Shown here piece by piece: positions 8,112-59,304 of a stretch of 64,000 nucleotides of DNA. The notes beneath the pieces were generated by a model. The model saw nothing but the letters and a program-made list of their open reading frames with translations, had not been told where the DNA came from and did no database searches. The stretch is from contig NC_043000.1 of the NCBI RefSeq assembly GCF_006345805.1, positions 145,762,001 through 145,826,000 on the forward strand, given 5' to 3'. The stretch is from Octopus sinensis (Eukaryota). Each line of letters starts with the position of its first letter. Within the stretch, counting starts at the first letter, position 1. The translations under genes and the position numbers were made by a program.

Positions 8112-9659
8112 ATATATAAGATTCAGTTGAATTAGGTACTAAAGTTGAGGCACCTCATTAAGTCGAATAATACACACTCACCAATATTATGTAAATATCA
8201 ACTTTGGCACAGGAGTACCGGCAGAACGATATTCCTGTAGAGCATGCAGATAGTTTGCAACAGGTGAGTATATAATCCGCTCTTGAGCTACTCAAACATG
8301 TACATTTTATTTAATATACAGTCCATAATATACAACGGACGTTTCTAACAACCCCTTTAATTGACTAATAGGTACATTATATCAATTATAAAGAAACCGT
8401 TTTCCTCGGATGACTATAAGAAATTTATAGTCAAGGACATTCTAAGTGATTTAACATATTTTAAATCTACCAAACAAAATATTTTCGCTGATTCTGCTAC
8501 TATTTTAGTTGACAAACCAAATTTACAACAATAATGTTCCTTTAATCAGATCAGAAAAATGTAGAGGTTTGTAGGTTTTCTACTTGCCGGAATGAATAGG
8601 CGGCCTCCAGTGACCCAATTACTCCCACTTCTAATAACAGAGATAGCAGTGGCACCGTTTATGTGGGATATATCTGGGATATATCTGTCAAAGAAAGAGT
8701 TGTTTATTGTCTACTTGAAAGTTGTAAGAGAATGATTAGTGGTCAGTTCAACCTACTGAATTATCAAGGTCATTTGTGATGGAACTCATTCACAAGCTTT
8801 ATCTCTACAACTAGACAATTAAGAGAGAAGTAATAGGATACCGGGAGAAAGGGGCGGAGAGGATAAAGGCAAAAAGGAAGTAAACCAACACAACCGTACC
8901 TAATTCTCGTAATTCAAAGGGAGAACAAACTTTGAATGATAATGGAATAAAGTTATGGGTGCAAAACCCTAAATCATGACTTTGAGAATCATTGAAAGGA
9001 AATAAAAATAAAACCTACTCGAAGATAGCAGAACCATCGTATTAAAATTTTACTAACCCTGCCCCCTCTATCTTTACCCTTCACGTAGGCTCTATCACTA
9101 CATACCTAACACTCCTTTATTATTTACACTCTCATCTTTTTACACTCTCATATCTTTCTCTCTTTATCACCCTCACCCCTATTCCTTCTAACTAACACTC
9201 CTTTACTCTTTACACTCTTATCTCTTTACACTCTCATATCTTTCTCTATCACCCTCACCTCCACATTCCTTCAATCAATTTATCGTGAATGACCACTAAC
9301 CAGTACACTTTCCCTCTCTTCATTTCTCTATTATCTCTCTCCTTGCCTTTCCTTTTTCTTTTTCCTTTTTCCTTTCTTTCTGTCTTTGATGTGACCTTAC
9401 AAACACATTTCAAACTTTTAAGTCACTTCAAAAATAAGAAAACACCTCGATTCAATAACACCTTTACAAACGCTATGCTTGGAATGACCAATTTTAAATA
9501 CAATTAGAACTTAATCGCAAGGTACAGGAATATTATATCTATACCATTCTGCCTAAATAATGGAACTGAATATACAATATCCATGCATATCCCACGTCTA
9601 TTTTCATTCCTCCAATTTATTCTTTATTTCATATCTTACCTAGAATAACTATTGCTTAA

Positions 9660-9934
9660 TCATCTTCTCACACTCTCCGATGAAGGGATATATAACATAT
9701 CCCTGAAATAGCTGTAAGACATTCTATTTCTAAATGTCCTGAAATTTTTCACAGCCTTGGATTTTTATCTCATTCTGATAATTTTTTTTATATATACACA
9801 TGCTAATATATTACCTACGCTGGACTCCTCATTCGCATTATGACCGAACCTGGAGCTTAACTATAGTCTGTCCATAGCACTTACTCAGCATAACCTGACG
9901 CCATTGGGTCTTATTGACACCATTACCTCTCATA

Positions 9935-9935
<1 letters not shown>
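9660..9935 (+). mobile_element. Penelope-like terminal repeat remnant containing an HHR, ending at (TA)n
   Basis: HHR motif plus downstream homology to 746-968; terminates in attacctctcataa(ta)n. Confidence 0.5.
9674..9719 (+). ncRNA. Minimal type I hammerhead ribozyme motif (U4C variant)
   Basis: tct-CCGATGA-agggata/tataaca/tatccct-GAAA-tagctg-TA-aga: 7-bp stem II, near-palindromic stem III, GUA site after 9716, 3-bp stem I. Confidence 0.65.
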
Positions 9936-19347: not shown

Positions 19348-21440
19348 TCAAAAATTTTTTTACTCAAAAATTTTCACCAAAAATTTTACCCAAAAATTTT
19401 CACCAAAAATTTTACGAAAATTTTCACCGAAAATTTTACACAAAAATTTTCACCAAAAATTTTTTGAAAATTTTCACCCAAAACTTTACCCAAAAATTTT
19501 CACCAAAAATTTTACACAAAGATTTTCATCAAAAATTTTTCGAAAATTTTCACCGAAAACTTTACCCAAAAATTTTCACCAAAAATTTTTGGAAAATTTT
19601 GACCGAAAACTTTACCCAAAAATTTTACGAAAATTTTCACCGAAAACTTTACCCAAAAGTTTTTCGAAAATTTCACCCAAATATATTTCGAAAATTTTCC
19701 CCAAGAATTTTTCGAAAATTTTCACCAACAACTTTTCGAAAGTTTTCACCCAAAACTTTACCCAAAAATTTTCACCAAAGATTTTACCAAAAAATTTTCA
19801 CCAAAATTTTTTGGAAAATTTTGACCGAAAACTTTACCCAAAAGTTATTCGAAACTTTTAACCAAAAATTTTTCGAAAACTTTACCCAAAAATTTTTCGA
19901 AAATTTTCACCAAAAATTTTACCCAAAAATTTTTCGAAAATTTTCACCAACAACTTTTCGAAAGTTTTCACCAAGACTTTACCCAAAAATTTTCACCAAA
20001 AACTTTACCCAAAAATTTTCCGAAAATTTTACTCAAAAATTTTCACCAAAAATTTTACCCAAAAATTTTCACCAAAAATTTTACGAAAATTTTCACCGAA
20101 AATTTTACCCAAAAATTTTCACCGAAAATTTTACCCAAAAATTTTCACCAAAAATTTTTTGAAAATTTTCACCGAAAACTTTACCCAAACACTTCCACCA
20201 AAAATTTTACACAAAAATTTTCACCTAAAATTTTTCGAAAATTTTCACCGAAAACTTTACCCAAAAATTTTCACCAAAAATTTTCCGAAAATTTTCACCA
20301 AAAATTTTTGGAAAATTTTCACCGAAAACTTTCCCCAAAAATTTTTCGAAAATTTTCCCCAAAAATTTTTCGAAAACTTTACCCAAAAAATTTTACGAAA
20401 ATTTTCACCGAAAACTTTACCCAAAAGTTTTTCGAAAATTTCACTCAAATTTTTCGAAAATTTTCCCCAACAATTTTTCGAAAATTTTCACCAACTTTTC
20501 GAAAGTTTTCACCCAAGACTTTACCCAAAAATTTTCCGAAAATTTTACTCAAAAATTTTCACCAAAAATTTTACCCAAAAATTTTCACCAAAAATTTTAC
20601 TGAAAAATTTTCGGAAAATTTTCACCGAAAATTTTACCAAAAAATTTTCACCAAAAATTTTTTGGAAAATTTTCACCGAAAATTTTTACCGAAAATTTTA
20701 CCAAAAAATTTTACGAAAATTTTCACCGAAAACTTTACCAAAAATTTTCCGAAAATTTTACTCAAAAATTTTCACCAAAAATTTTACCCAAAAATTTTCA
20801 CCAAAAATTTTACGAAAATTTTCACCGAAAACTTTACCCAAACACTTCCACCAAAAAATTTACACAAAAATTTTCACCAAAAATTTTTCGAAAATTTTCA
20901 CCGAAAACTTTACCAAAAAATTTTCACCAAAAATTTTGCGAAAATTTTCACCGAAAACTTTACCCAAAAGTTTTTCGAAAATTTTCCCCAAAAATTTTCC
21001 CCAAAAATTTTCACCAAAAATTTTCCCCAAAAATTTTCACCAAAAACTTTACTGAAAAATTTTCGGAAAATTTTCACCGAAAACTTTACCCAAAAATTTT
21101 CACAGAAAATTTTACCCAAAAATTTTTCGAAAATTTTTACCGAAAATTTTACCAAATATTTTTTGAAAATGTTCACTGAAAATTTTCAACAGAGACTTTA
21201 CCAAAAAATTTTCAGAAAATTTTACCCAAAAATCTTTTGAAAATTTTTCCGCAAAAATTTTTCAAAACTTTTCAACAAAAACGTTACCCAAATATTTTTG
21301 GAAAATTTTCACCGAAAATTTTCACCAAAAATTTTACCAAAAAATTTTCTGAAAATTTCACAGAAAATTTTACCCAAAAATTTTTCGAAAATTTTCCCCA
21401 AGAATTTTTTTAAAACTTTCACCGAAAACTTTACCGAAAA
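19348..21440. repeat. 2.1 kb satellite of ~11-13 bp variant units (CC/CG-AAAA(A)TTTT-CA/AC)
   Basis: Continuous aaaattttcacc / aaaactttaccc / aaaatttttcg variants. Confidence 0.95.
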
Positions 21441-25235: not shown

Positions 25236-25316
25236 AGGAAAAGAATTTTAATTGCCTCTTTCAATTCAGGTTTTTATTTTTCATGTTTATATTCGTATTT
25301 CATTGTTATGTTTATA

Positions 25317-25882
25317 TTGGGTTGTCCGGAAAGGTCGTTCCGATTTTTAAAGGAAAGAAAATGGCCAATAAATACTTGCCATTACATTTTTGATGAACCA
25401 AATCTGAACCATTTCGTTGCACAATACGTCTCCATCTTTCCTTTGCCTTGTAAATACCCGCTTCCCAGAATTGAGGTGGTTTCAAGGCAAATAATTCATC
25501 AAGGTATCTTTTTACGTCATCTAAGGAATTGAAATTTTCATCATTAAGACTATTCTGAAGAGACCTGAATAAGTGGAAATCCGAAGGAGCAATATCTAGG
25601 AAATAGGGAGGGTGGAGTAACACATCCCAGCCGAGCTGCAGCAATTTTTGTCTGGTTCCCAAAGCATCAAGTGCCGAAAATGAACTTTCTCATATTTTAT
25701 TTTAAAGAGTTACAGAATTAACACAGGTTATAGGAACATAAACCTTCTTCCACGAAAAGATAGCTTAAACTGTGCTCTAAATGGAGGTGTAGTCAAATCC
25801 TACTTTATGGACTCAAACATGTTCTAAAATAAGTCGAAAGTTAAGCTACTATAAATCGGCACGAACTTTCCGGACAAACCAG
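25317..25882 (-). mobile_element. Internally deleted mariner element with TIRs and TA TSD
   Basis: TIRs ttgggttgtccggaaaggtcgttccgattt / aaatcggcacgaactttccggacaaaccag flanked by TA; ORF has LGWDVLLHPPYFLDIAPSDFHLFRSLQN. Confidence 0.9.
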
Positions 25883-26749: not shown

Positions 26750-27775
26750 TCTCAGGTCATCCCATAAGTCCTGTCCAAATTTTGGATAAAGAATACAAGT
26801 GATCAAATGTTATATTTAATTCAAAGTTAATCATCAATGTACTTTCCCTGATTATCTATGACTTACTTCCATCTATTTACAAGCTTTTTAATTCCATCAA
26901 TCTAAAACTCTTTTGGATCCAAAGCGAAGAACTCTGAAATGTCAGGTTCAACCTTCTCCTGGCTTGCGAAAGTTATGTCCCCGTAATAATTCTGTAAACT
27001 ATGAAACAAATGGTATCCTGAAGGAGTAAGGTCGGGAGAATAAGTTGGATGAAAAACTTTTTCCAGGCCGACCTCTTCGATCTTCTGTGATGTGATCTTT
27101 GCAGTGTGGGGTTGCGCATTGTCCTGATGAAACATCACTCGTTTTCGACTCACTAAAGCGGCTCTTTTTTCCTTCAAAGCTTGGTTCAAACGCTCTAATT
27201 GCTGACAGTAGACTTGAGCATTGATTGTTGCATTAGGTGGTGACAATGTAAAGTGAATTACGCCTTTGCAATCGCACCAGATAGAGAGAAGAACTTTTTT
27301 CCCATAAAGTTCCCTTCTCGGTTGTGGTTGAGCATTTTCCCTTTTAACAAACCACTGTTTACGACGTTTAATATTTTGATAGAAAATCCATTTTTCGTCA
27401 CATGTCTATCGAAAAAGGATGAAATGAGTTTGCGAGAATGGAGGGAAGAGCAGATGTCAACTCGGGATTTGCGGTTGCTTTCGGACAATACATGAGGCAC
27501 CTATTTTCCAAGTTTAGGAATCTTTCCACGTTGTTGAAGATGACGATGAACTGTCGTATGGTTTGAAGTAAGCTTTAATGCCAATTCTTCAACTGATAAT
27601 GACGGATCTTCTTCAAGGAAGGCCTCAAGGAGCTTATCATCAAACTCAACTGGACGTCCTGTTCGATATTCATCTTCAATTTTGCAAACGATCTCCTGCA
27701 CGTTCTTTCACTCAAGCACTTTCCCATAAACTGAGTAATGTTTCGAGTCACTTCGGCTGCAGAGTTACCTTTATT
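26750..27775 (-). mobile_element. Decayed mariner transposon, 5' end interrupted
   Basis: Frameshifted ORFs with HQDNAQPH, HPTYSPDLTPSGYHLF, RTGRPVEFD and KGNSAAEVTRNI motifs. Confidence 0.9.
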
Positions 27776-28307: not shown

Positions 28308-28405
28308 TCGAAAACTTTACCCAAAAATTTTCCGAAAATTTTCACCGAAAATTTTACCCAAAATTTTTCGAAAATTTTGACCTAAAACTTTACCCAAAAA
28401 TTTTC
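28308..28405. repeat. Short outlier of the AAAATTTT satellite
   Basis: Same units as 19348-21440. Confidence 0.9.
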
Positions 28406-29720
28406 CTTCCTTTTGCATTCGAAAACAGATTTGCCGATTCTGACGTATGGAGTATAGAATAAATTTTATTTTATTTTAGATATTTGCATTAAAAAAAAAT
28501 TAACACTACAATGTTTTCTATAAGCCAACTCTCGTAAGCATTTTATACCACGAATATATAACGACGACGACGACGTCACATTTTCTATATGAATGTGTAC
28601 CACAAAACACATCTACGTATCTTCCTTTTGCATTCGAAAACTGATTTGCCGATTTTGACGTATGGAGTATAGAATAAATTTTATTTTCTTTTAGATATTT
28701 GCATTAAAAGAAATTAACTCTATAATCTTTTCTATAAGCCAACTCTCGTAAGCATCTTATACCACGAATATATAACGATGACGATGACGTCACATTTTCT
28801 ATATGAATGTGTACCACAAAACACATCTATTTCTCTACTTCTTATGAGGAAATACAGTCACTTTCACACACACACACATGCACTCTCGCACGCACACATA
28901 TATACAAAAAGCATGTATTATATCTATTTATGTATATGTATATGAAATATGTGCGTGTGTGAGACAGAGAGACCGAATGAAGGCCACTTACACATATGTG
29001 ATAACACATGCATACACTCATTCACTGTATCTCTCCTCTCTCTCTATCTCTCTCTCTCTCGCTCACTATCTCTCTCTCTCTCTCTCTCTCTCTCACGCAC
29101 ATGCACACACACCCGTTTGATATACACTTACATACACCGTTCACTTTCACCTCCGTTTCACTTTCTGCTCTCTCCTCAAAGCAAATGTCACGTTTTCACT
29201 TTCTCTTCTCTTTCAATTTCTGCTTTCTGTAAAGCATATAGAAATTTTAAAAAATTACGGAAATGAACGAATACATTCGAAAATTGCGTTGCCGATTTTG
29301 ACGTATTAGGTATCAAAAGATTCAGTAATTTTTCGGCTAACAAATAAACGTTATTTTTCATTTAAACATTTGCATTACAAATATTTAACATTATAATCTT
29401 TCTATAATTCAACTATCCTAAATGACATTTTACAACACAACAACGACGACGTCTCATTTTCTACATGAGTGTTTACCTTAAAATGCATCCATTTCCCTAT
29501 CTCCATATGTTATGAGGAAATACAGACACTCACTTTCTCTCTCACATGCACACGCACACATACATACAAAAGTATGTATATATACATGTATTTATCTGCA
29601 TGTATGTGAAAGATAATGTGTGCGTGTGTGAGAGAGAGACAGAGAGATTGAATGCCACTTACACATACATGCAAAATATACACACATGACAACACACACC
29701 TTCACTCACTCACTCACTCA

Positions 29721-39786: not shown

Positions 39787-40099
39787 TGAATTTTTGGTGT
39801 AGCATAATTATAAATAATTTTCTCATGAGGAAATGCAGAGAATGGCTTCCTTACCGGTTCAAATATTTTCCATGCGTATTTGAACATATAACAAGTTTGT
39901 GTTTAACATCACTGCGTAACGCTTCTGCTCTGCATGTATAAATTAATAGCATACAAATGGCGTCTAAGGTAGCTACAGCTCTTTCGATACTGTTTACGAC
40001 TACACTGAACAGCTATTAGTAATTTGGACGCCATTTTGTGTTACTATACTTACATACGGGCATACATACCTACAAATATACATACATAAAATAAATGAT

Positions 40100-40853
40100 A
40101 AATGCACCCTTTTAAAGTCTAGCCAGGCTCATGAGCCCGGTTTCCCAGGTTTCAATGGCGTATGTGTTCCCCAGCTGGACGGGACGGCAGTCCATCGCAG
40201 CGTTACTCATTTTTGTCAGCTGAGTGAACTGGAGCAACGTCAAATGAAGTGTTTTGCTGAAGAGCACAACGCGTCGCCCGGTCCAGGAATCGAAACCACA
40301 ATCTTACGGTCATGAAGCTGACACCCTCACCACTAAGCCACGCGCCTCCACTAAATGTTCCCTTTTAAAGCCTAGCCAGGCTCATGGACCCGGTTTCCCG
40401 GTTTTAATGGCGTATGTGTTCCCCAGCCGGTCGGGACGCCAGTCCATCGCAGCGTTACTCATTTTTGCCAGCTGAGTGGACTGGAGCAACGTGAAATTAA
40501 GTGTTTTGCTCAAGAATACAATGCGTCGCCCGGTCCAGGAATCGAAACCACAATCTTACGATCATGAAGCTGACACACTAACCACTAAGACACGCGCCTC
40601 CACTAAATGTGCCCTTTTAAAGCCTAGCAAGACTCATGGACCCGGTTTCCCGGTTTTAATGGCGTATGTGTTCCTTGGCTGGACGGGACGCCAGTCCATC
40701 GCAGCGTTACTCGTTTTTGTCAGCTGAGTGGACTGGAGCAACGTGAAATGAAGTGTTTTGCTCAAGAATACAACGCGTCGCCCAGTCCAGGAATCGAAAC
40801 CACAATCTTACGATCACGATACTGACACACTAACCACTAAGCCACGCGCCTCC
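40100..40853 (-). mobile_element. Head-to-tail trimer of a ~250 bp tRNA-derived SINE
   Basis: Units at 40100, 40353 and 40605, each starting (minus strand) ggaggcgcgtggcttagtgg...ggtttcgattcc (A and B boxes). Confidence 0.92.
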
Positions 40854-46600: not shown

Positions 46601-47017
46601 TATACGCACATACACGCATTCATATACATATGATATATATATATGTATATATGATATATATTTATAAATAAAGATAATATCGATATTATCAAGTGGCCAG
46701 TATGGTATGGTATGTACATATATACGCACATACACGCATTCATATACATATGATATATATATATATATATATATGATATATATATTATATATATATATAA
46801 TATATAATATATATATATATTATAATATGTATATGAATGCGTGTATGTGCGTTATATGTACATACCATACCATACTGGCCACTTGATAATATGGTGGAAA
46901 GGGGAGAACAGAGATTCTTCGCTTGCTTATTTTGAATTGTTGGCACTGTTAGTTGGGAGCAGATCTTCGAAAGGGTATGTTCTTATTTTCAGTGTTTCCA
47001 AATCCAAACCAAGGAAT

Positions 47018-47074
47018 TTCCGAGCCGATGATAGAAATGTTGTTTTGACTAATCTTGAAACGTACGTTCTCGAA
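47018..47074 (+). ncRNA. Hammerhead ribozyme motif, array 1 copy 1
   Basis: ttccgag-CCGATGA-taga...tctt-GAAA-cgtacg-TT-ctcgaa; palindromic stem III, GUU site after 47068; stem II weak. Confidence 0.65.
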
Positions 47075-47563
47075 TAACCTTAGCATTTGATTTTTCGATG
47101 TCCTTACCCCCAAACTTTTGTGAGTTGAATTATGCAAACACTATATATGAGAGAGATTTTCTTTAAGTATTAGAAATAGCCTTAAAAAAGTTTTTTAGCT
47201 GCTATTTCTAATGAGTTCAGTATGCGGCAAAGTAATTTATTTTACTAAGCCCTTTTATATAATGTAATAATTTGAATTCGCCTTGAATGGTCCCTTTGCA
47301 TACTGAACACTTGGTGAAATTGATTAATAATTAATTAATTTTGCCCTCAATTGTTGAAATTATAATTAATCTCCCTCTGATTAATACTTCGGATTTTACC
47401 GAAATAAGCATAGAGTTTGATGATTTTAACCCACGCTGGTGGAAAGGGGAGAACAGAGATTCTTCGCTTGCTTATTTTGAATTTGTTGGCACTGTTAGTT
47501 GGGAGCAGATCTTCGAAAGGGTATGTTCTTATTTTCAGTGTTTCCAAATCCAAACCAAGGAAT

Positions 47564-47620
47564 TTCCGAGCCGATGATAGAAAAGTGTTTTTGACTAATC
47601 TTGAAACGTACGTTCTCGAA
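47564..47620 (+). ncRNA. Hammerhead ribozyme motif, array 1 copy 2
   Basis: Same core and stems as copy 1. Confidence 0.65.
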
Positions 47621-48103
47621 TAACCTTAGCATTTGATTTTTCGATGTCCTTACCCCCAAACTTTTGTGAGTTGAATTATGCAAACACTATATATGAGAGA
47701 GATTTTCTTTAAGTATTAGAAATAGCCTTAAAAAAGTTTTTTAGCTGCTATTTCTAATGAGTTCAGTATGCGGCAAAGTAATTTATTTTACTAAGCCCTT
47801 TTATATATGTAATAATTTGAATTCGCCTTGAATGGTCCCTTGCATACTGAACACTTGGTGAAATTGATTAATAATTAATTAATTTGGCCCTCAATTGTTG
47901 AAATTAAATTAATCTCCCTCTGATTAATACTTCGGATTTTACCGAATAAGCATAGAGTTTGATGATTTTAACCCACGCTGGTGGAAAGGGGAGAACAGAG
48001 ATTCTTCGCTTGCTTATTTTGAATTTGTTGGCACTGTTAGTTGGGAGCAGATCTTCGAAAGGGATGTTCTTATTTTCAGTGTTCCAAATCCAAACCAAGG
48101 AAT

Positions 48104-48160
48104 TTCCGAGCCGATGATAGAAATGTTGTTTTGACTAATCTTGAAACGTACGTTCTCGAA
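48104..48160 (+). ncRNA. Hammerhead ribozyme motif, array 1 copy 3
   Basis: Same core and stems as copy 1. Confidence 0.65.
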
Positions 48161-48441
48161 TAACCTTAGCATTTGATTTTTCGATGTCCTTACCCCCAAA
48201 CTTTTGTGAGTTGAATTATGCAAACACTATATATGAGAGAGATTTTCTTTAAGTATTAGAAATAGCCTTAAAAAAGTTTTTTAGCTGCTATTTCTAATGA
48301 GTTCAGTATGCGGCAAAGTATTTATTTTACTAAGCCCTTTTATATAATGTAATAATTTGAATTCGCCTTGAATGGTCCCTTTGCATACTGAACACTTGGT
48401 GAAATTGATTAATAATTAATTAATTTTGCCCTCAATTGTTG

Positions 48442-48503
<62 letters not shown>

Positions 48504-48577
48504 AATAAGGATAATATCGATATTTAAATATTGATATTATCAAGTGCCACATGGTATGGTATATATGATATATATAT

Positions 48578-48619
<42 letters not shown>

Positions 48620-48623
<4 letters not shown>

Positions 48624-49009
48624 TGTGTGGTAAGTAGCTTGCTAACCAACCACATGGTTCTGGGTTCAGTCCCACTGCGTGGCACCTTGGGCAAGTGTCT
48701 TCTGCTATAGCCCCGGGCCGACCAATGCCTTGTGAGTGGATTTGGTAGACGGAAACTGAAAGAAGCCTGTCGTATATATGTATATATATATGTGTGTGTA
48801 TATGTTTGTGTGTGTGTGTTTGTCCCCCTAGCATTGCTTGACAACCGATGCTGGTGTGTTTACGTCCCCGTCACTTAGTGGTTCGGCAAAAGGGACCGAT
48901 AGAATAAGTACTGGGCTTACGAAGAATAAGTCCCGGGGTCGATTTGCTCGACTAAAGGCGGTGCTCCAGCATGGCCGCATTCAAATGACTGAAACAAGTA
49001 AAAGAGTAA
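48620..49009 (+). mobile_element. tRNA-derived SINE, family A
   Basis: Match to family A, missing the first ~10 nt. Confidence 0.92.
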
Positions 49010-49019
49010 TATATATATA

Positions 49020-50379
49020 TAGTCCCTTGCAGGTGCTAGACGCAATTTTACTTCATTCTCTCTCAGTTTTTTGGTTCGAATGCGCTTTATTGTTAATTTT
49101 TGTGCAGCTGATGTTTCACCAAGTGTTCCCCATAGGTTGTTCGATCGAATTTAGTTCGGGACGTTGCGCTGGCCATTCCATGTGAACAATATTCTGTGCC
49201 TCAAACTATTAACTAATATTCTTTGCTGCATGACATGGAGCGTTGTCCTGTTAAAAGATAACACTATTTTTCGACACTCCTGGATGCAATTTAGCAACTG
49301 TTGGCTCTAGAACACCCGATAACATAGAAATATAGGTAACTGAATTCACCCTTCCCTGACATAAAATCCTTCCTCCGGGCCCTGTGGCAGACATGCAGGC
49401 CCACACCATGATAGAACAACCCTCATGTTTTACGGTTGATACTAGACATCATGTCTTAAATACTTCCTCAGCTCTGCGACACACGAAAGTTGCACCAGAT
49501 GTACCGAAAACCTGAGTTAAAGCAAGAAAAATAATATAGCTTTATGCTCGATACTTTTTTTAATATATTTTGGGTAACAAACCAGTTACATTCAGTTTAT
49601 ATGTTGATCGAATACATGTTCTATCATACCTCATAGTTACTATTATCAAACCATATGGCTTTCGACCATTGCTCACTGGTACAATTTGGCCCATTGAAGA
49701 CGTTTTTCCATATTCGCTTCAGAAACCCATGACTTCTTCCTGGTTTTACAGCTTTTCATACCGTAATCTACAAGCCTTCTTCTAACAGTTTTGGTTGATA
49801 TTTGTGAAGTACTTGCCTCGTTGAAATCCGCACAGAGCTCCGACAATGTTTTTCTCCTGTTTCTGAGCGACCGACGGATGATGGACCTATCATCACCGAG
49901 GTGATGTAACCTTTTTTCTACATGTTTTCTGTATCGTCTTCACATCTTATGTCTCTCTGAATCGCTTGAGAGTAGTTTGAACCGCACATCGAGAGCAGTT
50001 CATCTTCTGAGCAATTTGCCATTGAGAAATTCCATCTTCACGATGAGCTACGATTGACCTCGCTAACACTCACTCAACTCCCTTGTTTTAGACATTTTAC
50101 TGTTTATTACCTGTATCTACAACGTATTTAAGCATAAAGCTCTGAAATAATCAAGGAAACAAAAGTTAATTTTGGACGTTGGTCTTACTCGTAATTTGTT
50201 GTATATGTAAAGTACAGTATAAAAGCGTTAATTGATGCGAAAGGAGGGTCAACCAGGTATTAAAACTAATGTACATTGTGAAATATACCATAATCTACCA
50301 TGTGCACGAATTTCATTCATATTGAGATAGAAGAACCCTAAAACATTGGGGTGGCCTTATACTTTTGGCCAAGAGTGTA
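49020..50379 (-). mobile_element. Decayed Tc1-like transposon
   Basis: Minus-strand translation QDNAPCHAAK and EWPAQRPELNSIE (WPAQSPDLNPIE-like); terminus tacactcttggccaaaagtataaggccacc. Confidence 0.8.
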
Positions 50380-50382
50380 TGG

Positions 50383-50427
<45 letters not shown>

Positions 50428-50474
50428 TGTGTGTGTGTGTATGTGTGTGTGCGTGCGTGCGTGTGTATTATATA

Positions 50475-51873
50475 CACAGTGTGTAAGATATTTGAGGACA
50501 GATTTGTTTATAATGAAAACACATATAATAACTGATAATAACGTTATTTATCAAAAACTACTATGGGGATAAAAATAACCCTTCTTTCCTATAATGTTAT
50601 TCAATAAAGCAATCTTCAGCTTCAATAATTGCTTCTATACGAGATCTAAATCATCTACATGCTCGAATCAAGTGGTCCTGGTTCATTTTCGACATTATTA
50701 TGACTGTGTCAGCTTTCAAGGAATCTTTGGTGTTATGGGCAAGTTCATTGACCTCTCTCTCTCTCTCAACAACACTCCACATGTAATAGCCCAATGGACT
50801 GAGATCTGGGCAATTAGGAGGCCAAATGTTAGGGGATATGTGATAATGAAAATTTTCATCATTCTATTCTTGTGTTACTAGTGCCCTGTGTGATAGTGCA
50901 GAGTCTTACTGAAACATATATGGCTTTCCATTGCATACACTGTCTATCCAGGGCTTAACAAATCTTTCCAGGAACTCAATGTAGGTGGCAGAGCTAACTC
51001 TGAGGCCTTGTAAAAGAAAGTAAGAAGGCATCACATGTCCTTCAATGCTAAAACCCCCTAAAACCATGACAGTTGCTTAACAAATCTTTCCAGGAACTCA
51101 ATGTAGGTGGCAGAGCTAACTCTGAGGCCTTGTAAAAGAAAGTAAGAAGGCATCACATGTCCTTCAATGCTAAAACCCCCTAAAACCATGACAGTTGCAG
51201 GAAATGTTGTATGCATAACATGTGGAACTTCAGAACAGTCTGCATATAACCACCTGTCATTTTTTTGTTAACTTTTCGATCTTCGTCGAAGTGTTTCTCG
51301 CTTGAGAAAAAACAAATCAAATCTTGTTCTGTTGGATTTTTCAGTTTGTTTAAGAGCTTTTTAGATCTGATTTTCTTTTCCTTTTTTTCTTTTGATTAAT
51401 GATTTTATTTTGTTTTTTTGTGACATAAATTGCTCATTACTCATCTTATAAGACTTATATCAGATGTCTTCGTGGACAACCTCTCTGACCCTTACTTTTG
51501 ACACATAGTAATTTTTTGCAGTTGACTTAAAGACTTCCAGTTGATTTGTAACCAATGGCCTGTTGAACTTATTAGATAAATTCAGGTGTTCTGAAGATTT
51601 CAGAGCGTTTTTAGGATGCTTTTTTATGCTTTGATAATGGTGATACATTTCCATCTTCAATCATTAACTCCTTACACACTTTGTAGACGAAAGATCTGGC
51701 AACTTTTAAAAATCAAGATATCTCTAAATCAGTATACTCAGCCTTTATAACCACAATAACAACATGCTTCTTCATTTCCTGAATAAGCTGTTATCATTTT
51801 CTGAAACAGAGATAATACAGAGTTAGCAAAACATGCTGCAATAACCAAAAAGAGGTATGTCATATGCACCCTG
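50475..51873 (-). mobile_element. Decayed maT/DD37D-like Tc1-mariner transposon
   Basis: Minus-strand translation VMHTTFPATVMVLG...EGHVMP and NIWPPNCPDLSPLGYYMWSVVE; TA-flanked cagggtg-like ends. Confidence 0.75.
50953..51198. repeat. Exact 122-bp tandem duplication inside the transposon
   Basis: gcttaacaaatctttccagg... at 50953 and 51075. Confidence 0.95.
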
Positions 51874-52565
51874 TATATATGTATGTATGTTTGTGTGTAT
51901 ATATGCATAATATATTTGCCTTTCGATATTATTAATCAAAATAAGATAGAGAGCGGACAGAAACGTTACTGCGTCATAAAAAAAACATGCTTAGCTGCTT
52001 TTCTTCTGTTCTCTACATTTTAAGTTCAAATGCCGGGGTTGTTGACTTTAGATTTCATTCTTTTAAGCTCGATAAATAAGTACTAGTTTCGCACTGGGGT
52101 CGATCTAATCAACTCGCATTTGCCGCACAATTTGCTGACCCATTGCCGAAATTGAAACCGATATTAGCTTGACAGTTGTACAGTTGATACAGCTGAAAAT
52201 GTAGAAGTTTGGATTCATCAAACAATAGAGGCTTCTTTATTTGCCCCTGGTTGTCAGTTTGTTATGAATGGAATTTTAATAATGCAAATCTTTGCATTAC
52301 TTGTCGACTCTGTGTGTGTATGTGAATATGGCTATATATGGTGTTTAATTGTGTTAATGATACAACAATTGATATTGTATACAATCAACAACTTGTATAT
52401 TGAATCAGTATATAACTGATAAACGTGCCTTATTGAAATACGCACTGGTGCCGATATATTCGAAAAATATCTCTTGAACATAGTAGCTTAGCATGACCAA
52501 ATTTTAATGTCTGAAACTCCAAAACTAGTTACATGCCTGATTATGTGCGTATCATCTGCAAAGAT

Positions 52566-52621
<56 letters not shown>

Positions 52622-52622
<1 letters not shown>

Positions 52623-53025
52623 TTTACTCTTTACTCTTTTACTTGTTTCAGTCATTTGACTGCGGCCATGCTGGAGCACCGCCTTTAATCGAGCAACTCG
52701 ACCCCGGGACTTATTCTCTGTAAGCCCAGTACTTATTCTATCGGTCTCTCTTTTGCCGAACCGCTAAGTGACGGGGACATAAACACACCAGCATCGGTTG
52801 TCAAGCAACGCTAGGGGGACAAACACAAACACACAAACACACACACATACACATACATATATACGACGGGCTTCTTTCAGTTTCCGTCTACCAAATCCAC
52901 TCACAAGGCTTTGGTCGGCCCGAGGCTATAGTAGAAGACACTTGCCCAAGGTGCCACGCAGTGGGACTGAACCCGGAACCATGGGGTTGGTAAACAAGCT
53001 ACTTACCACACAGCCACTCCTGCGC
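52622..53025 (-). mobile_element. tRNA-derived SINE, family A
   Basis: Reverse complement of the family A sequence. Confidence 0.92.
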
Positions 53026-53786
53026 TGTATGTTCTTACTTTTATATGAGAGCAGGCGTATGTGCGTATGCATCTATTTTACGTAGATATTTGCTGTTCAG
53101 TAGATTGTCAGTTAACGTCCCATTAAGAGCAATTTGCAGAGAAGTATTTTAAACATCTAGCCATTACCTTATTTCTTTACTAACAAGAAAAATTGTAAAA
53201 ACAATATCGGTTGACTAGTCAATAATCGAATAACATCTAATTGCATATCTTCGAAAAGATATTATCATAATGATGTATTCTGTACCTATTATTTTTTCTT
53301 TAATATTTTAAAGAAGAATGTATGTTAAAAAAAATGAAACATTCAACAAAAGCAATAAGATATATATACGTAAGTGCTGTTAAGAGAGGATTTCAGGAAT
53401 AGAGAGATTAGAGAGAAATGAATTTGTAAAGGATCAAAAATTAATGACGTGAAAATGAGGACACAGAAAGAAAACCGAAAAGTCATATAATCGAGGTAAT
53501 ATGAAGGCGAAAATACACCGGCTGTGGATACGGATCAGAACAAGGTTCGACAAGAGTCCAAAAGTATTTTCAATTGTAAGTCAGAGTGAATTACATGTAT
53601 ATATATATATATATATATTATATATTATATATTATATATATATATATATACATGCATATGTATATATATAAGTATACATATTTATATACATGCTCACATA
53701 AACCCACACACATATTCTTATGTGTATGTGCATGTATATCCATATATTTATATATATACATGTATATATGTATATGCATATGTATT

Positions 53787-53817
<31 letters not shown>

Positions 53818-55389
53818 ATGTATATTTCTATATATACATATCTAATATATATACCTATATAAATATATACATATATATAATATATATATTTGTATATATA
53901 TATATATATATAATATATATATATATATATACATATTTATTATACATACATATATACATATGTACATCATGTGAGAGAGAGAGAGATAGAAAGAGAGTGT
54001 TGGTGCGTACGGATTGGAGAGTGGGAGGCGAAGGAGCAGAGCAGAGTCATAGAGAGGTAATTATCACAATTGTGAGGAAGGCAAAAATTCGGGGAGAGTT
54101 TAAAAAATACTAAGGATCACAAAAGAAGGAAATGATAGGTTACGTGTTCAATGAAAAATTGTTTAAAGTAATACAGCAGATATATTAAAGTTTGACAGGG
54201 AGATATCGAAAAGTACATATTTAGAGTCATAGCAAAATTAGTAAATGCGGAGAGGCCTACCAATTACGATACAGATAATCAATAAATGAATCTATATATT
54301 TGTACTCTTCTTATTTGTTCCATTGTTTCTTTTGCCAATAATTTGTCACAAATTGTTAAGAGCCACTAATCAAGAATATGGAGCGCATTAACAGATATAA
54401 ACATACACAAACCAGTCGATATTGTGCAGTTAATTAAAATCCAAGCCAGTGATACGTTTACTGTTTCTCTTGTTACTAAAGTGGTAGTCATGTTGTTGAT
54501 CATCCTTCAACATGTCTTGTTATTTATTCATAATGTTGTCATGGGTGTAACACTTGCTGAAGCCGATATTGTGTTAATGAGGTTGCATCTATTGGCTGAG
54601 ATGTTGGTGGAAGAGGAGTTTTTCTTTATTTGTTTTATTATGCGTGTTGCATTGTTTCCCTTCTTTCATTAATCATCAGATATTTTCTGAGAAAAATGTA
54701 CGCAAATTTAAAGTGTCCAAACAACGACAATCATGGCAGACACCGACGCCTATTCTCTACGCTGTTACACTTTGATCTTTGATTAAAGCTACTATTGTGT
54801 AAGTGCGTATGTGTGTGAGAGAGGAAGTGAATGTATGTATGAAGTTATTTGTAAATATGTGTATATACATTTAATTGCATATAAATGCTCATATATACAT
54901 ATGTATATATATATATATAGAGAGAGAGAGAGAAAGAGATAGATAGATAGATAGATAGATATCATACATACACATGCACACATACACACAAACATGTATA
55001 CATACATACATATATATATAAATATAGATAGATAGATAGATACAGATATACATATATGTATACTTATATATATATGTATATATATAGAGAGATAGACATA
55101 TATAGATACAGATATACATATATGTATACTTATATATGTGTATATATATATATATATATAATATTAATTTATCTCCCTCAATTTTTAATATTTAAATAAA
55201 TACGTTCCCTAGTAGTAAGCTTTACCCGCAGTGAATTATTCACTGCAGCCCTTCGCTTCAGGAGTCTCTTAGCGCGCCGGAACCAAGACATTTGAAATTT
55301 TATTCCCGATGTAATCAGTAAGACTAAGCACGTGTCTGTCTTGACACAGAGAGCTGGGGTTAGTCTTTCAGTTTGCATCTCGAGGACCG

Positions 55390-55465
55390 AATGTACTGAA
55401 GAAGTCACGGACACTTGAATTATGCAAGTAATTCTTTTGTTAAGACCGAAACCGAGGTATGCATT
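55390..55465 (+). ncRNA. Hammerhead ribozyme motif, array 2 copy 1
   Basis: aatgta-CTGAAGA-agtc...gaattat GCAA gtaattc...gacc-GAAA-ccgagg-TA-tgcatt; 6-bp stem I, extended stem II capped by a GNRA loop, GUA site after 55459. Confidence 0.8.
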
Positions 55466-55928
55466 TAAGTCTGTTTTTATATTAATTTTTCATATGTCTG
55501 CCCGCCAAATTTGGTTCTGGTGTTCGCTGAATTCTTCCTCTAGAGAATTCCGTTGTAGTTGATCGTTGATGATCTATTCTAGCATTCTGGCCGGCTACCT
55601 AGCAGGCCAGCCCTGCCAATATACACATATTTGAATTTTCTCTGACTCCTCAGATTTTTGAATGCTGGACTACTGGTTTTAAATTGATATTAAAATTAAT
55701 ATTAATTTATCTCCCTCAATTTTTAAATATTTAAATAAATACGTTCCCTAGTAGTAGGCTTTACCCGCAGTGAATTATTCACTGCAGCCCTTCGCTTCAG
55801 GAGTCTCTTAGCGCGCCGGAACCAAGACATTTGAAATTTTATTCCCGATGTAATCAGTAAGACCAAGCACGTGTCTGTCTTGACACAGAGAGCTGGGGTT
55901 AGTCTTGCGGTTTGCATCTCGAGGACCG

Positions 55929-56004
55929 AATGTACTGAAGAAGTCACGGACAATTGAATTATGCAAGTAATTCTTTTGTTAAGACCGAAACCGAGGTATG
56001 CATT
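55929..56004 (+). ncRNA. Hammerhead ribozyme motif, array 2 copy 2
   Basis: Same core and stems as copy 1. Confidence 0.8.
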
Positions 56005-56444
56005 TAAGTCTGTCTTTTATTTAATTTTTCATATGTCCTGCCCGCCAAATTTGGTTCTGGTGTTCGCTGAATTTGATCGTTGATGATCTATTTCTAGCAT
56101 TCTGGCCGGCTACCTAGCAGGCCAGCCCTGCCAATATACACATATATTTGAATTTTCTCTGACTCCTCAGATTTTTTGAATGCTGGACTACTGGTTTTAA
56201 TTGATATTAAAATTAATATTAATTTATCTCCTCAATTTTTAAATATTTAAATAAATACGTTCCCTAGTAGTAAGCTTTACCCGCAGTGAATTATTCACTG
56301 CAGCCCTTCGCTTCAGGAGTCTCTTAGCGCGCCGGAACCAAGACATTTGAAATTTTATTCCCGATGTAATCAGTAAGACCAAGCACGTGTCTGTCTTGAC
56401 ACAGAGAGCTGGGGTTAGTCTTGCGGTTTGCATCTCGAGGACCG

Positions 56445-56520
56445 AATGTACTGAAGAAGTCACGGACAATTGAATTATGCAAGTAATTCTTTTGTTAAGA
56501 CCGAAACCGAGGTATGCATT
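56445..56520 (+). ncRNA. Hammerhead ribozyme motif, array 2 copy 3
   Basis: Same core and stems as copy 1. Confidence 0.8.
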
Positions 56521-56851
56521 TAAGTCTGTCTTTTATTTAATTTTTCATATGTCCTGCCGCCAAATTGGTTCTGGTGTTCGCTGAATTGATCGTTGATGAT
56601 CTATTTCTAGCATTCTGGCCGGCTACCTAGCAGGCCAGCCCTGCCAATATACACATATATTTGAATTTTCTCTGACTCCTCAGATTTTTTGAATGCTGGA
56701 CTACTGGTTTTAAATTGATATTAAAATTAATATTAATTTATCTCCCTCAATTTTTTTTTTATATATATATATATATATAATTATCTTCGTGTGCATATAT
56801 GTGTGTCGGTGTTTGTGTGTGTGTGAGTGTCTGTGTGTATGTGTGTGTGTA

Positions 56852-57120
56852 TTGTACCAAACTTTGGCACTGAGACGCCACTGCAGACTGCCAAGAATCC
56901 CTGTATCTCCATCAAAATACAGGATCAGATACTGCAACAGCTTGGGTTTCAAGCGCCTCCAGTTATTCAATATCCTTCCAAAATACCTGCGGGACCTGCA
57001 TGGTGTGGATCTAGGTGTCTTCAAATCAAAACTCGTTCTCTTCCTGTCAAGGATTCCAGATGAGCCTGCCTCATGGGAGAAAACCAGATGAGGGTGGCGG
57101 CATCTTTAATCATTTGTCTT
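56852..57120 (+). mobile_element. CR1-group LINE 3' end fragment
   Basis: NSLGFKRLQLFNILPKYLRDLHGVDLGVFKSKLVLFLSRIPDEP matches the LFNxLP...FKxxLDxFL..IPDEP C-terminus of CR1/L2-group ORF2. Confidence 0.75.
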
Positions 57121-57134
57121 CCTATGCCCATATA

Positions 57135-57943
57135 TATATGTATATATATATATATATATATCTACATATATATAAGTACAAGAACACCATTCTCAGAATA
57201 AAACAAATAATGCAAAATAATGCAAAGAAATTAACAACAAGAAAAGATAAAAACAATTACTCAAAAGACAAAACCAAGGGAGAAAGACATCCAAAAGACG
57301 CCAGTCAAGAGTAAAGTCCCTTGATTCATTGATTCATTGAATTCATTATTAATGCGAATTTACTAGAAATCCCGCAAACGAAGACAGAATGTTTTCTAAA
57401 AAATAGAGGCGAACATCTTTCTCCATATTATCAACTTGAAAAATGTTTGAGACACTAGAATATTTTCCTACTTTTCTCAACATGAAACTAATGGCCGCCT
57501 TAATTTACAGATACAGAAGTTATATATCCATTTACTTATATATATATATATATATTATATATATATATATCTACATATATATAAGTACAAGAACACCATT
57601 CTCAGAATAAAACAAATAATGCAAAATAATGCAAAGAAATTAACAACAAGAAAAGATAAAAACAATTACTCAAAAGACAAAACCAAGGGAGAAAGACATC
57701 CAAAAGACGCCAGTCAAGAGTAAAGTCCCTTGATTCATTGATTCATTGAATTCATTATTAATGCGAATTTACTAGAAATCCCGCAAACGAAGACAGAATG
57801 TTTTCTAAAAAATAGAGGCGAACATCTTTCTCCATATTATCAACTTGAAAAATGTTTGAGACACTAGAATATTTTCCTACTTTTCTCAACATGAAACTAA
57901 TGGCCGCCTTAATTTACAGATACAGAAGTTATATATCCATTTA

Positions 57944-57975
<32 letters not shown>
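57135..57975. repeat. Apparently identical 409-bp tandem duplication with (TA)n junctions
   Basis: agaacaccattctcag at 57181 and 57590; no differences noticed by eye. Confidence 0.92.
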
Positions 57976-57985
<10 letters not shown>

Positions 57986-58159
57986 TATATATATAATTTA
58001 GAGGAATGACCACTAATAGTGGAAAGCCTGTATGCTAGAAAAAGATGTCAAATTCGCCATTTGCCACGAAGAATGTGTTCTCAAGAAAAATTTCAGGAAA
58101 AACCAAAGTGTAAAAATAAGCAAGACAAATGAAAATATACGAAATAAAAAAACGATTAC

Positions 58160-58234
58160 CCATGTAATAATTAGTTTCACTTGTTAATATTTACGTATAT
58201 GGATACACAAACATCTGCAAGATCGTCAGCATAG
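58160..58234 (-). ncRNA. Hammerhead ribozyme motif, array 3
   Basis: Minus strand: ctatg-CTGACGA-tcttg...caagt-GAAA-ctaattat-TA-catgg; copy 2 has gtaattag-TA-catag, giving consensus palindrome CTAATTAG and a GUA site; long G-U-rich stem II. Confidence 0.75.
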
Positions 58235-58730
58235 TCTGTCGTTTAAGAAATAAAATTTCTAGAACTAGATACAGGGCGCTCGACCGAAATCCAGCATGTA
58301 TAAAGCTCCACAAATTATATTTATGTGTATCTTTCAAATGCCTTCACTTTAGCGCACTAAGATCGGAAATTACTCTGCAGTTAATAAACTACAGCAGTTA
58401 ATTTACCGGCTAGAGAACATTTTTTATTTAAAATTAAATAAGGGTAGAAATTGCTATTAATCAATTAAAACCAGTGGCCTAGCATATTTTAAAAAAATCT
58501 GAAGATTACAAATTTTTCTACATACAAAATTTAGAGAAATGACCACTAATAGTGGACAGCCTGTATGCTAGAAATAGATGGCAAATTCGCCATTTACCAC
58601 GAAGAATGTGTTCTCAAGAAAAAATTCAGCAAAAAGCCAAAGTGTAAAAATAAGCAAGAAAAATGAAAATATATGAAATAAAAAAACCATTACCTATGTA
58701 CTAATTACTTTCACTTGTTAATATTTACGT

Positions 58731-59110
58731 GGAGGCGCAATGGCCCAGTGGTTAGGGCAGCGGACTCGCGGTCGTAGGATCGCGGTTTCGATTCCCAGAC
58801 CGGGCGTTGTGAGTGTTTATTGAGCGAAAACACCTAAAGCTCCACGAGGCTCCGGCAGAGATGGTGGTGATTCCTGCTGTACTATTTCACCACAACTTTC
58901 CCTCACTCTTACTTCCTCTTTCTGTTGTACCTGTATTTCAAAGGGCCGGCCTTGTCACTCTCTGTGTCACGCTGAATATCCCCGAGAACTGCGTTAAGGG
59001 TACACGTGTCTGTGGAGTGCTCAGCCACTTACACGTTAATTTCACGAGCAGGCTGTTCCGTTGATCGGATCAACCAGAACCCTCGTCGTCGTAACCGACG
59101 GAGTGTTTCC
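58731..59110 (+). mobile_element. Full-length tRNA-derived SINE with an 11-bp TSD
   Basis: A box tggcccagtgg, B box ggtttcgattcc; TSD aatatttacgt at 58720-58730 and 59111-59121. Confidence 0.93.
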
Positions 59111-59304
59111 AATATTTACGTATATGGATACGTAAATATTGACGTCTATTTCTAGTATACAGGCTTTCCACTATTAGTGGTCATTCCTCTAAATTTTGTA
59201 TGTATAAAACTTTTTAATCTTCGGATTTTTTAAAATATGCTAGGCCACTGGTTTTAATTGACTAATATCAATTTCTGGCCTTATGTAATTTTATATATAT
59301 ATAT

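What the first reader, a model, noticed from the sequence alone, without database searches (positions are those of the whole stretch)
46892..59292. A shared system: three HHR arrays with a common 3' motif and (TA)n targeting
Seen: three different ~515-545 bp HHR units within 12.5 kb share an AT-rich motif. Array 1 has aattgattaataattaattaattttgccctcaattg, array 2 has aattgatattaaaattaatattaatttatctccctcaattt, and array 3 has aattgattaatagcaatttctacccttattt. Arrays 2 and 3 also share atgctrgvcyactggttttaa just upstream. Sense 3' ends run into (TA)n shortly after a CCTC(T)AA-like word, as do 746-968 (acctcaac) and 9660-9935 (acctctcataa). Inference: one trans-acting PLE RT/GIY-YIG machine recognises this motif and primes at TA microsatellites, supporting several parasitic ribozyme RNA families. 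No autonomous partner is visible in this window.
Basis: partly seen in the sequence, partly recalled or inferred. Interest (0 to 1): 0.8.

Follow-up and report, generated by a model that had tools for sequence, protein, structure and literature searches.

The report
Ribozyme repeats share one RNA fold
The three repeats are protein-free jumping elements that carry a self-cutting RNA motif, land in TA microsatellites and, with about ten more families in this genome, share one predicted RNA fold on which their copies end at two fixed sites, likely the start sites of a borrowed Penelope-type copying enzyme that has not been identified.

Summary
Observation confirmed and extended; interpretation partly supported. 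The three arrays are copies of three dispersed, ORF-less families (units 533-546 bp) with type I hammerhead motifs. Their 3' ends fall at two fixed sites about 95-110 nt apart (99 of 107 ends); 91 of 107 run into (TA)n against a 6% background. Head-to-head insertions pair one short with one long end (25 of 33). That is the Penelope-like footprint. The AT-rich 'motif' is the terminal hairpin of a 140-175 nt predicted RNA module shared by at least 13 families, with compensatory changes in all five pairs of its basal helix. Not supported: 746-968 and 9660-9935 are another family without the module, and none of eight ORF-bearing Penelope-like families examined carries it; they target (TA)n too, so TA flanks do not single out one enzyme. 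Weak leads (a shared linker word, one direct junction) point to one Neptune-type subclade. Penelope mobilisation of animal retrozymes is proposed in print, and this scan reported the footprint before for other families of this genome and a conserved structure in another genome. The cross-family module was not found in seven literature searches. New variant of a known kind.

The parts
46892..48447 (+). Family F1: 2.87 tandem units of 542-546 bp, 5'-truncated, ending at its long 3' site in (TA)n
   Evidence: units 99.3% alike
47015..47079 (+). Type I hammerhead motif of F1 (U4C core variant, palindromic helix III, weak helix II); repeated at 47571 and 48111
   Evidence: descriptor scan; monomer fold not above shuffles, z 0.3
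47201..47353 (+). Shared RNA module, F1 copy (also 47747-47897, 48287-48438)
   Evidence: model R1 74-81 bits (F1 is in the training set); fold z -5.7
48446..48620 (.). (TA)n tract at the 3' end of array 1
55159..56760 (+). Family F2: three tandem units (538, 517, 514 bp) plus 44 bp, in (TA)n on both sides, ending at its long 3' site
55386..55470 (+). Type I hammerhead motif of F2 (7-bp helix I); repeated at 55935 and 56451
   Evidence: monomer fold z -0.2
55573..55722 (+). Shared RNA module, F2 copy (also 56087-56238, 56600-56753)
   Evidence: R1 85-107 bits; fold z -5.6
57986..58730 (-). Family F3, forward arm: 1.4 units of 533 bp ending at its short 3' site in (TA)n (57946-57995)
58157..58239 (-). 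Type I hammerhead motif of F3; this copy has a helix III mismatch, other copies (L062) do not
   Evidence: L062 fold z -2.4
58435..58578 (-). Shared RNA module, F3 copy
   Evidence: R1 89 bits; fold z -2.6
58731..59110 (+). Later SINE-like insertion into the helix II part of the second F3 unit, with an 11-bp target duplication; not part of the system
   Evidence: read; SINE label recalled; ARAGORN finds no tRNA
59139..59293 (+). F3 inverted arm (head-to-head), holding the module (59145-59287) and ending at the long 3' site in (TA)n

Best explanation
The three arrays are ORF-less hammerhead-bearing repeats that end at two fixed sites of a shared, predicted RNA fold and sit in (TA)n, and they are likely retrozymes copied in trans by a Penelope-like reverse transcriptase-endonuclease that starts at those two sites. 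Shown: dispersed young copies, no ORF, variable 5' ends, two fixed 3' ends, head-to-head arms pairing short with long, TA flanks, a covarying basal helix shared by at least 13 families. Inferred steps: (1) the array is transcribed, and the hammerheads may cut it to monomers or circles; (2) a PLE protein binds the module (basal helix P1 enclosing hairpin P2 and one or two more hairpins, a short linker, then terminal hairpin P5); (3) its GIY-YIG domain nicks (TA)n on both strands; (4) each nick primes cDNA inside the RNA, one about 10 nt after P2 (short end), one about 10 nt after P5 (long end); (5) the two cDNAs join head-to-head, or one arm alone is fixed; reading on round a circle or multimer gives tandem units. 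The most likely donor is the subclade of young two-ORF Neptune-type elements here called NepA/D/E/F/G (about even odds).
For: Dispersal: 1005, 1225, 2834 first-look candidates, best copies 96-98%, 91-99%, 88-94% alike on many contigs. Longest stop-free frame 76-97 codons. Ends at the two sites: 21 of 22, 38 of 40, 40 of 45; head-to-head pairs long+short 4 of 5, 13 of 15, 8 of 13, none long+long. The intact NepE element shows the same architecture with ends 36 nt apart. PMC11167929 (main text read) shows in vitro that a PLE protein cuts both strands of AT-rich DNA and starts at two internal RNA sites that match genomic ends. Module: RNAalifold on a sequence-only alignment of 15 rows finds P1 with two-sided changes in 5 of 5 pairs; 84.5% of cells paired, covariation 0.476 against 0.303 shuffled (0 of 500) and at most 0.268 when slid. 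F2 and F3 stay alike for about 90 nt past the long end, as expected if the protein binds RNA 3' of the start site. Donor leads: MAFFT aligns the module's linker word with a word 30-40 nt before the long end of NepA/D/E/F/G (columns 38-45) and not with NepB, NepC, PE or F4; in L160 a module family (F7) is joined at its long end, without TA, to the 5' end of an intact NepA.
Against: No ORF-bearing element examined carries the module; their tails are 36-47 nt, not about 100. A longest-common-word test of the last 30 nt singled out no family (47 to 820 of 1000 shuffles as good; NepE 111). The linker likeness was not scored for significance, and NepE and NepG are offset in the alignment. The direct junction is 1 of 30 NepA 5' ends and none was seen in 30 NepE loci. 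Families were collected by likeness to the motif, so sharing is partly by construction. On 14 further distinct matches fitted to the model, two of five measures did not exceed shuffles (232 and 500 of 500), and several of these rows belong to training families. F1 and F2 hammerheads do not fold as monomers above chance. In array 2, units 2 and 3 share a deletion that unit 1 lacks, which a single circular template does not explain.
Confidence: 0.72

Rival explanations
1. The families are PLE-mobilised, but the module is an inherited fold kept for another job (RNA or circle stability, hammerhead folding, transcription), and several PLE enzymes, or any, can copy the RNA.
For: No autonomous element has the module; at least five young intact TA-targeting PLE families coexist; junctions with different partners occur (F7-NepA in L160, F2 with an unrelated hammerhead element in L056, F7 with F14 in L203); units are related by descent in part (F1-F8 score 71, F2-F3 60).
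Against: Both end sites sit at the same place in the fold in every family with ends in view, about 10 nt after a hairpin, although hairpin lengths and sequences differ; sequence outside the module has diverged to chance level in several pairs (F1-F3, F1-F7, F3-F7, F3-F8).
Confidence: 0.2
2. The units are the terminal repeats of an autonomous PLE not yet found, and the arrays are its 5'-truncated copies.
For: PLE insertions are often partial tandems with inverted arms (PMC8557442, passages); the genome search scores only the best 40 candidates, so rare full-length masters may be missed.
Against: Arrays run for up to six or more whole units with no ORF between them; among 150 loci (L001-L120, L201-L230) tblastn found PLE coding sequence in three distinct places only (L056, L104, L201), none as the upstream body of an F1-F3 unit.
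Confidence: 0.05
3. Satellite DNA spread by recombination or a DNA rolling circle, with hammerheads as passengers.
For: Tandem organisation; local duplication is visible in array 2.
Against: Fixed 3' and ragged 5' ends, strand-specific TA junctions and short+long head-to-head arms are marks of target-primed reverse transcription.
Confidence: 0.03

Closest known systems
Metazoan non-LTR retrozymes (Cervera and de la Pena 2020, PMC7229834: passages and Discussion read; Li, Clavereau and Pollet 2026, bioRxiv 10.64898/2026.07.22.740005: parts 1-3 of 5 read, no supplements)
   Same: ORF-less tandem units with type I hammerheads, AT-rich, dispersed; both papers propose PLEs as movers or source.
   Different: Units are longer than the coral, mussel and axolotl ones (about 300-390 bp); in what I read neither paper maps insertion ends, reports TA targeting or a fold shared between families; no cephalopod is among the 35 species of the 2026 survey; here no autonomous terminal repeat is homologous to the units.
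Poseidon of Anolis, PAc (Frangieh et al. 2024, PMC11167929: parts 1-2 of 4 read)
   Same: Two internal start sites that give two genomic ends, AT-rich targets cut on both strands, hammerhead upstream of the sites.
   Different: PAc is autonomous, its tail is 30-40 nt and its sites lie in one AC-rich stem-loop; here the tail is 95-110 nt and the sites follow two hairpins of a multi-branched fold.
Neptune, Naiad and Chlamys PLEs and non-autonomous Chlamys such as MRC1 (Craig et al. 2021, PMC8557442: passages and four supplement look-ups)
   Same: Partial tandems, inverted 5'-truncated arms, tail at one end, microsatellite targets ((TA)n for octopus Naiads); non-autonomous multicopy head-to-tail relatives exist.
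   Different: Non-autonomous Chlamys share 3' sequence with their autonomous family; these do not. The published Naiad_Ovul 3' end shows no module by eye.
PLE minimal hammerheads (Cervera and de la Pena 2014, PMC4209133: passages)
   Same: Short palindromic helix III, thought to act as dimers.
   Different: Cleavage was not tested for these motifs; F1 has a U4C core and weak helix II.

Membership tests
Non-LTR retrozyme | Tandem non-coding units, each with a type I hammerhead motif | tested here: met
   the window's F3 copy has only one whole motif
Non-LTR retrozyme | No protein-coding capacity | tested here: met
   longest stop-free frame 76-97 codons; no tblastn hit
Non-LTR retrozyme | Dispersed, recently spread copies | tested here: met
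Non-LTR retrozyme | Self-cleavage of the RNA | not testable with these tools
   motif only; monomer folds of F1 and F2 are weak
Non-LTR retrozyme | Expression as linear and circular monomer RNA | not testable with these tools
   no RNA holder listed; no reads laid
Penelope-like insertion (non-autonomous) | Fixed 3' ends with a tail on one arm, ragged 5' ends, head-to-head inversions | tested here: met
   tail 95-110 nt, longer than the published 30-40 nt
Penelope-like insertion (non-autonomous) | Microsatellite or AT-rich target | tested here: met
   91 of 107 ends against 5.6-5.9% background
Penelope-like insertion (non-autonomous) | 3' sequence shared with an autonomous partner | tested here: inconclusive
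   no module in eight families; unscored linker likeness to five of them; other clades not examined
Autonomous Penelope-like element | RT plus GIY-YIG open frame | tested here: not met
   none in the units or the window; present elsewhere in the genome
Known Rfam RNA family | Match to a curated model | tested here: not met
   no listed match reaches its gathering score and none of the 150 shown lies on the module; 14 weaker rows not shown

The most novel reading that the evidence does not exclude
The module is a dedicated RNA element for recruiting and positioning a Penelope-type reverse transcriptase, evolved by the parasites and absent from the enzyme's own RNA: a four- to five-helix fold that mimics only a short linker word of Neptune-type terminal repeats, sets two priming sites about 100 nt apart, and lets a dozen or more retrozyme families share the enzymes of one Neptune subclade, sometimes within one insertion event.
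Probability: 0.4. Interest if true: 0.72.

Novelty: new variant of a known kind. Interest (0 to 1): 0.5.

Why it matters
How animal retrozymes are copied, and what RNA feature a Penelope-like enzyme recognises, are open questions. A fold kept by compensatory change across many diverged families, with two start sites mapped to within about 10 nt and several intact young candidate enzymes in the same genome, makes both questions directly testable in the existing in vitro assay. A portable 150-nt element that directs two-site priming would also be of use in RNA-templated insertion work. The class itself is known, so the gain is mechanism, not a new kind of element.

Tried and rejected
Rfam: only microsatellite-driven microRNA look-alikes. 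Including 746-968 and 9660-9935 (F4): rejected; a decayed endonuclease end read by eye at about 9400-9570 got no tblastn support. F7 as the terminal repeat of NepA: rejected, it is itself a 514-bp tandem family. F2 next to NepA in L255/L258 and F1 next to NepA, F6 or F15 in L004, L136, L008, L005: separated by TA runs, so independent insertions. A long end 100 nt into NepA ORF1: not seen; its second end is about 40 nt on. NepE as partner by its last word: not supported by the covariance model or the common-word test. Sequencing runs: no RNA holder listed. Craig et al. supplement: three motif terms gave 0 hits, but long cells are cut and FASTA lines wrap, so this is weak. Clustering of three arrays in 12.5 kb: module matches at E<0.1 occurred 5 times in 333 kb beside PLE loci, so such clusters need no special cause. 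A weight-matrix score of the linker and terminal words was not obtained, so their significance stays open. Not in print: seven paper searches; Repbase, Dfam and the bioRxiv supplements could not be seen and may list these families.
Full report
The observation. The three arrays are there. F1 (46892-48447) has 2.87 units of 542-546 bp, F2 (55159-56760) three units of 538, 517 and 514 bp, and F3 (57986-59293) 1.4 units of 533 bp on the minus strand, then a SINE-like insertion, then an inverted arm. A descriptor finds type I hammerhead motifs in every whole unit: short palindromic helix III, as described for PLE-associated motifs (PMC4209133, passages). Rfam shows none. Monomer folds of the F1 and F2 motifs are no better than shuffles, that of an intact F3 copy is (z -2.4); cleavage is untested. 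The host looks like an octopus (2.7 Gb, microsatellite-rich; a 57% relative of a PLE protein is named from Octopus; earlier notes say the same).

Each array is one copy of a dispersed family: 1005, 1225 and 2834 first-look candidates, of which 40 were scored and 30 loci taken per family, so the sample favours the best-preserved copies. Units have no frame longer than 97 codons. Ends were mapped in these loci. Each family has two fixed 3' ends: unit positions 371 and 462-473 (F1), 472 and 44 of the next unit (F2), 533 and 94 of the next unit (F3). They take 21 of 22, 38 of 40 and 40 of 45 distinct ends; the rest were counted as 'other' and kept in the totals. (TA)5 follows within 30 nt in 21 of 22, 39 of 40 and 31 of 45, against 5.6-5.9% of random windows. 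Head-to-head insertions pair a short with a long end in 25 of 33 cases, short with short once, long with long never. 5' ends are ragged. This is the footprint described for PLEs (PMC8557442, passages), and PMC11167929 explains it by two internal start sites of reverse transcription and cutting of both strands of AT-rich DNA.

The shared motif. F2 and F3 align over 125 nt at 69%, F1 and F2 over 46 nt; F1 and F3 do not align above chance. Profiles built from this region found further families in the flanks of fetched loci: F5-F16, most with their own hammerhead 200-290 nt upstream of the long end; for F12 and F15 no hammerhead was in view. Folding each showed one architecture: a basal helix P1 that encloses hairpin P2 and one or two further hairpins, a short conserved linker, and a terminal hairpin P5. 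The short end lies about 10 nt after P2, the long end about 10 nt after P5, each behind a short pyrimidine word. The window copies fold at z -5.7, -5.6 and -2.6. On a sequence-only MAFFT alignment of 15 rows (13 families and two subfamilies; rows chosen by me, the F16 row cut too short at its 5' side) RNAalifold predicts P1 alone, with two-sided changes in all five pairs. For my 11-pair structure 84.5% of 161 cells pair; covariation is 0.476 against 0.303 in shuffles (0 of 500) and at most 0.268 when slid; P5's three closing pairs show little covariation. On 14 further distinct matches fitted to the model the paired share (83.6%) and covariation (0.401) exceeded nearly all shuffles, two count measures did not, and several rows are F7, F8 or F11 copies, so this is a weak replication. 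P2-P5 rest on single-sequence folds. F2 and F3 remain alike about 90 nt past the long end, sequence that survives only in tandem or circular templates; PAc also needs RNA 3' of its start sites.

In the window the model matches only the eight module copies of F1-F3. The elements at 746-968 and 9660-9935 are a separate family with its own hammerhead, ends about 140 nt apart and no module.

The partner. The genome holds many intact RT-GIY-YIG frames. Seven families, NepA-G, are called Neptune-type here from the cysteine motif between RT and endonuclease (criterion from PMC8557442; no tree was built); an eighth, PE, is distant. NepA, B, E and F have copies 98-100% alike. All end in (TA)n; NepA, D, E, F, G have tails of about 36-47 nt. 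The covariance model found no module in their terminal repeats in 100 + 20 + 20 + 30 loci; its hits were separate retrozyme insertions. Naiad_Ovul from the Craig supplement shows none by eye. Two leads remain. First, NepA/D/E/F/G (55-67% alike in protein, against 40-48% to NepB/C) carry a word 30-40 nt before their long end that MAFFT aligns with the module's linker, whereas NepB, NepC, PE and F4 do not; this is unscored, and a common-word test of the last 30 nt singled out no family. Second, in L160 the long end of F7 is joined without TA to the 5' end of an intact NepA, with F7's inverted arm ending at its short site in a microsatellite and no NepA sequence beyond: the simplest reading is a template switch within one event, but it is 1 of 30 NepA 5' ends.

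Verdict. The elements work like, and meet the testable criteria of, non-LTR retrozymes moved by PLEs, a link proposed in PMC7229834 and bioRxiv 10.64898/2026.07.22.740005. This scan reported the two-end TA footprint for other families of this genome and a conserved structure at the ends of one family in another genome; these are unchecked notes, not support. What this report adds is a fold shared across at least 13 families that places both ends, the exclusion of the two upstream elements, and the negative result that the examined autonomous elements lack it. Seven paper searches did not find the module; repeat databases and preprint supplements were not seen. That one enzyme serves all families, and that the fold is its recognition site, are inferences. 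New variant of a known kind; interest 0.5.

Noticed in passing
window 46683-46892: The 5' end of array 1 is joined to a 210-bp near-perfect inverted repeat of neighbouring DNA with a TA core (94%); a 73% similar stretch lies 3' of the array. Possibly a fold-back copy of the target made during insertion.
   Followed up: partly
window 58731-59110; L022 near 3212: The same SINE-like element sits in hammerhead helix II of F3 (window) and ends an F1 arm at unit position 154, also helix II; an earlier finding reports a retrotransposon that inserts into such repeats.
   Followed up: no
L343 5893-5925; L352, L348, L342, L353: The hammerhead-like motifs of the autonomous NepA/D/E/F/G elements have U3 and A8 in place of the C3-G8 core pair: a two-sided change of a catalytic-core pair shared by the subclade.
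   Followed up: no
L343 5990-6025 and 1624-1690; L349, L342, L151: In NepA/E/F/G the long end lies inside a stem whose 3' arm directly precedes the ORF1 start codon (read by eye), like the start-site stem-loop of PAc. These elements have an upstream ORF1 of 437-499 codons without Pfam match.
   Followed up: partly
L203 1776-1850: F7 long end joined without TA to a 70-bp piece of another module family (F14) that ends at its short site: a likely template switch between two parasite RNAs.
   Followed up: partly
L171-L200: A very abundant PLE family with a C-terminal GIY-YIG and 25-33% identity to the Neptune-type ones (35,765 first-look candidates); ends in (TA)n at two sites about 60 nt apart.
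   Followed up: partly
window 57130-57993: 409-bp tandem duplication between TA tracts next to array 3.
   Followed up: no
window 19358-21440 and 28309-28406: 12-13 bp minisatellite of about 2 kb, with a short second copy.
   Followed up: no
window 25315-25689 and 26905-27405 (-): Frames that read like mariner/Tc1 transposase pieces (label recalled).
   Followed up: no
window 40099-40853: Three tandem 252-bp units, GC-richer, SINE-like; no hammerhead hit.
   Followed up: no
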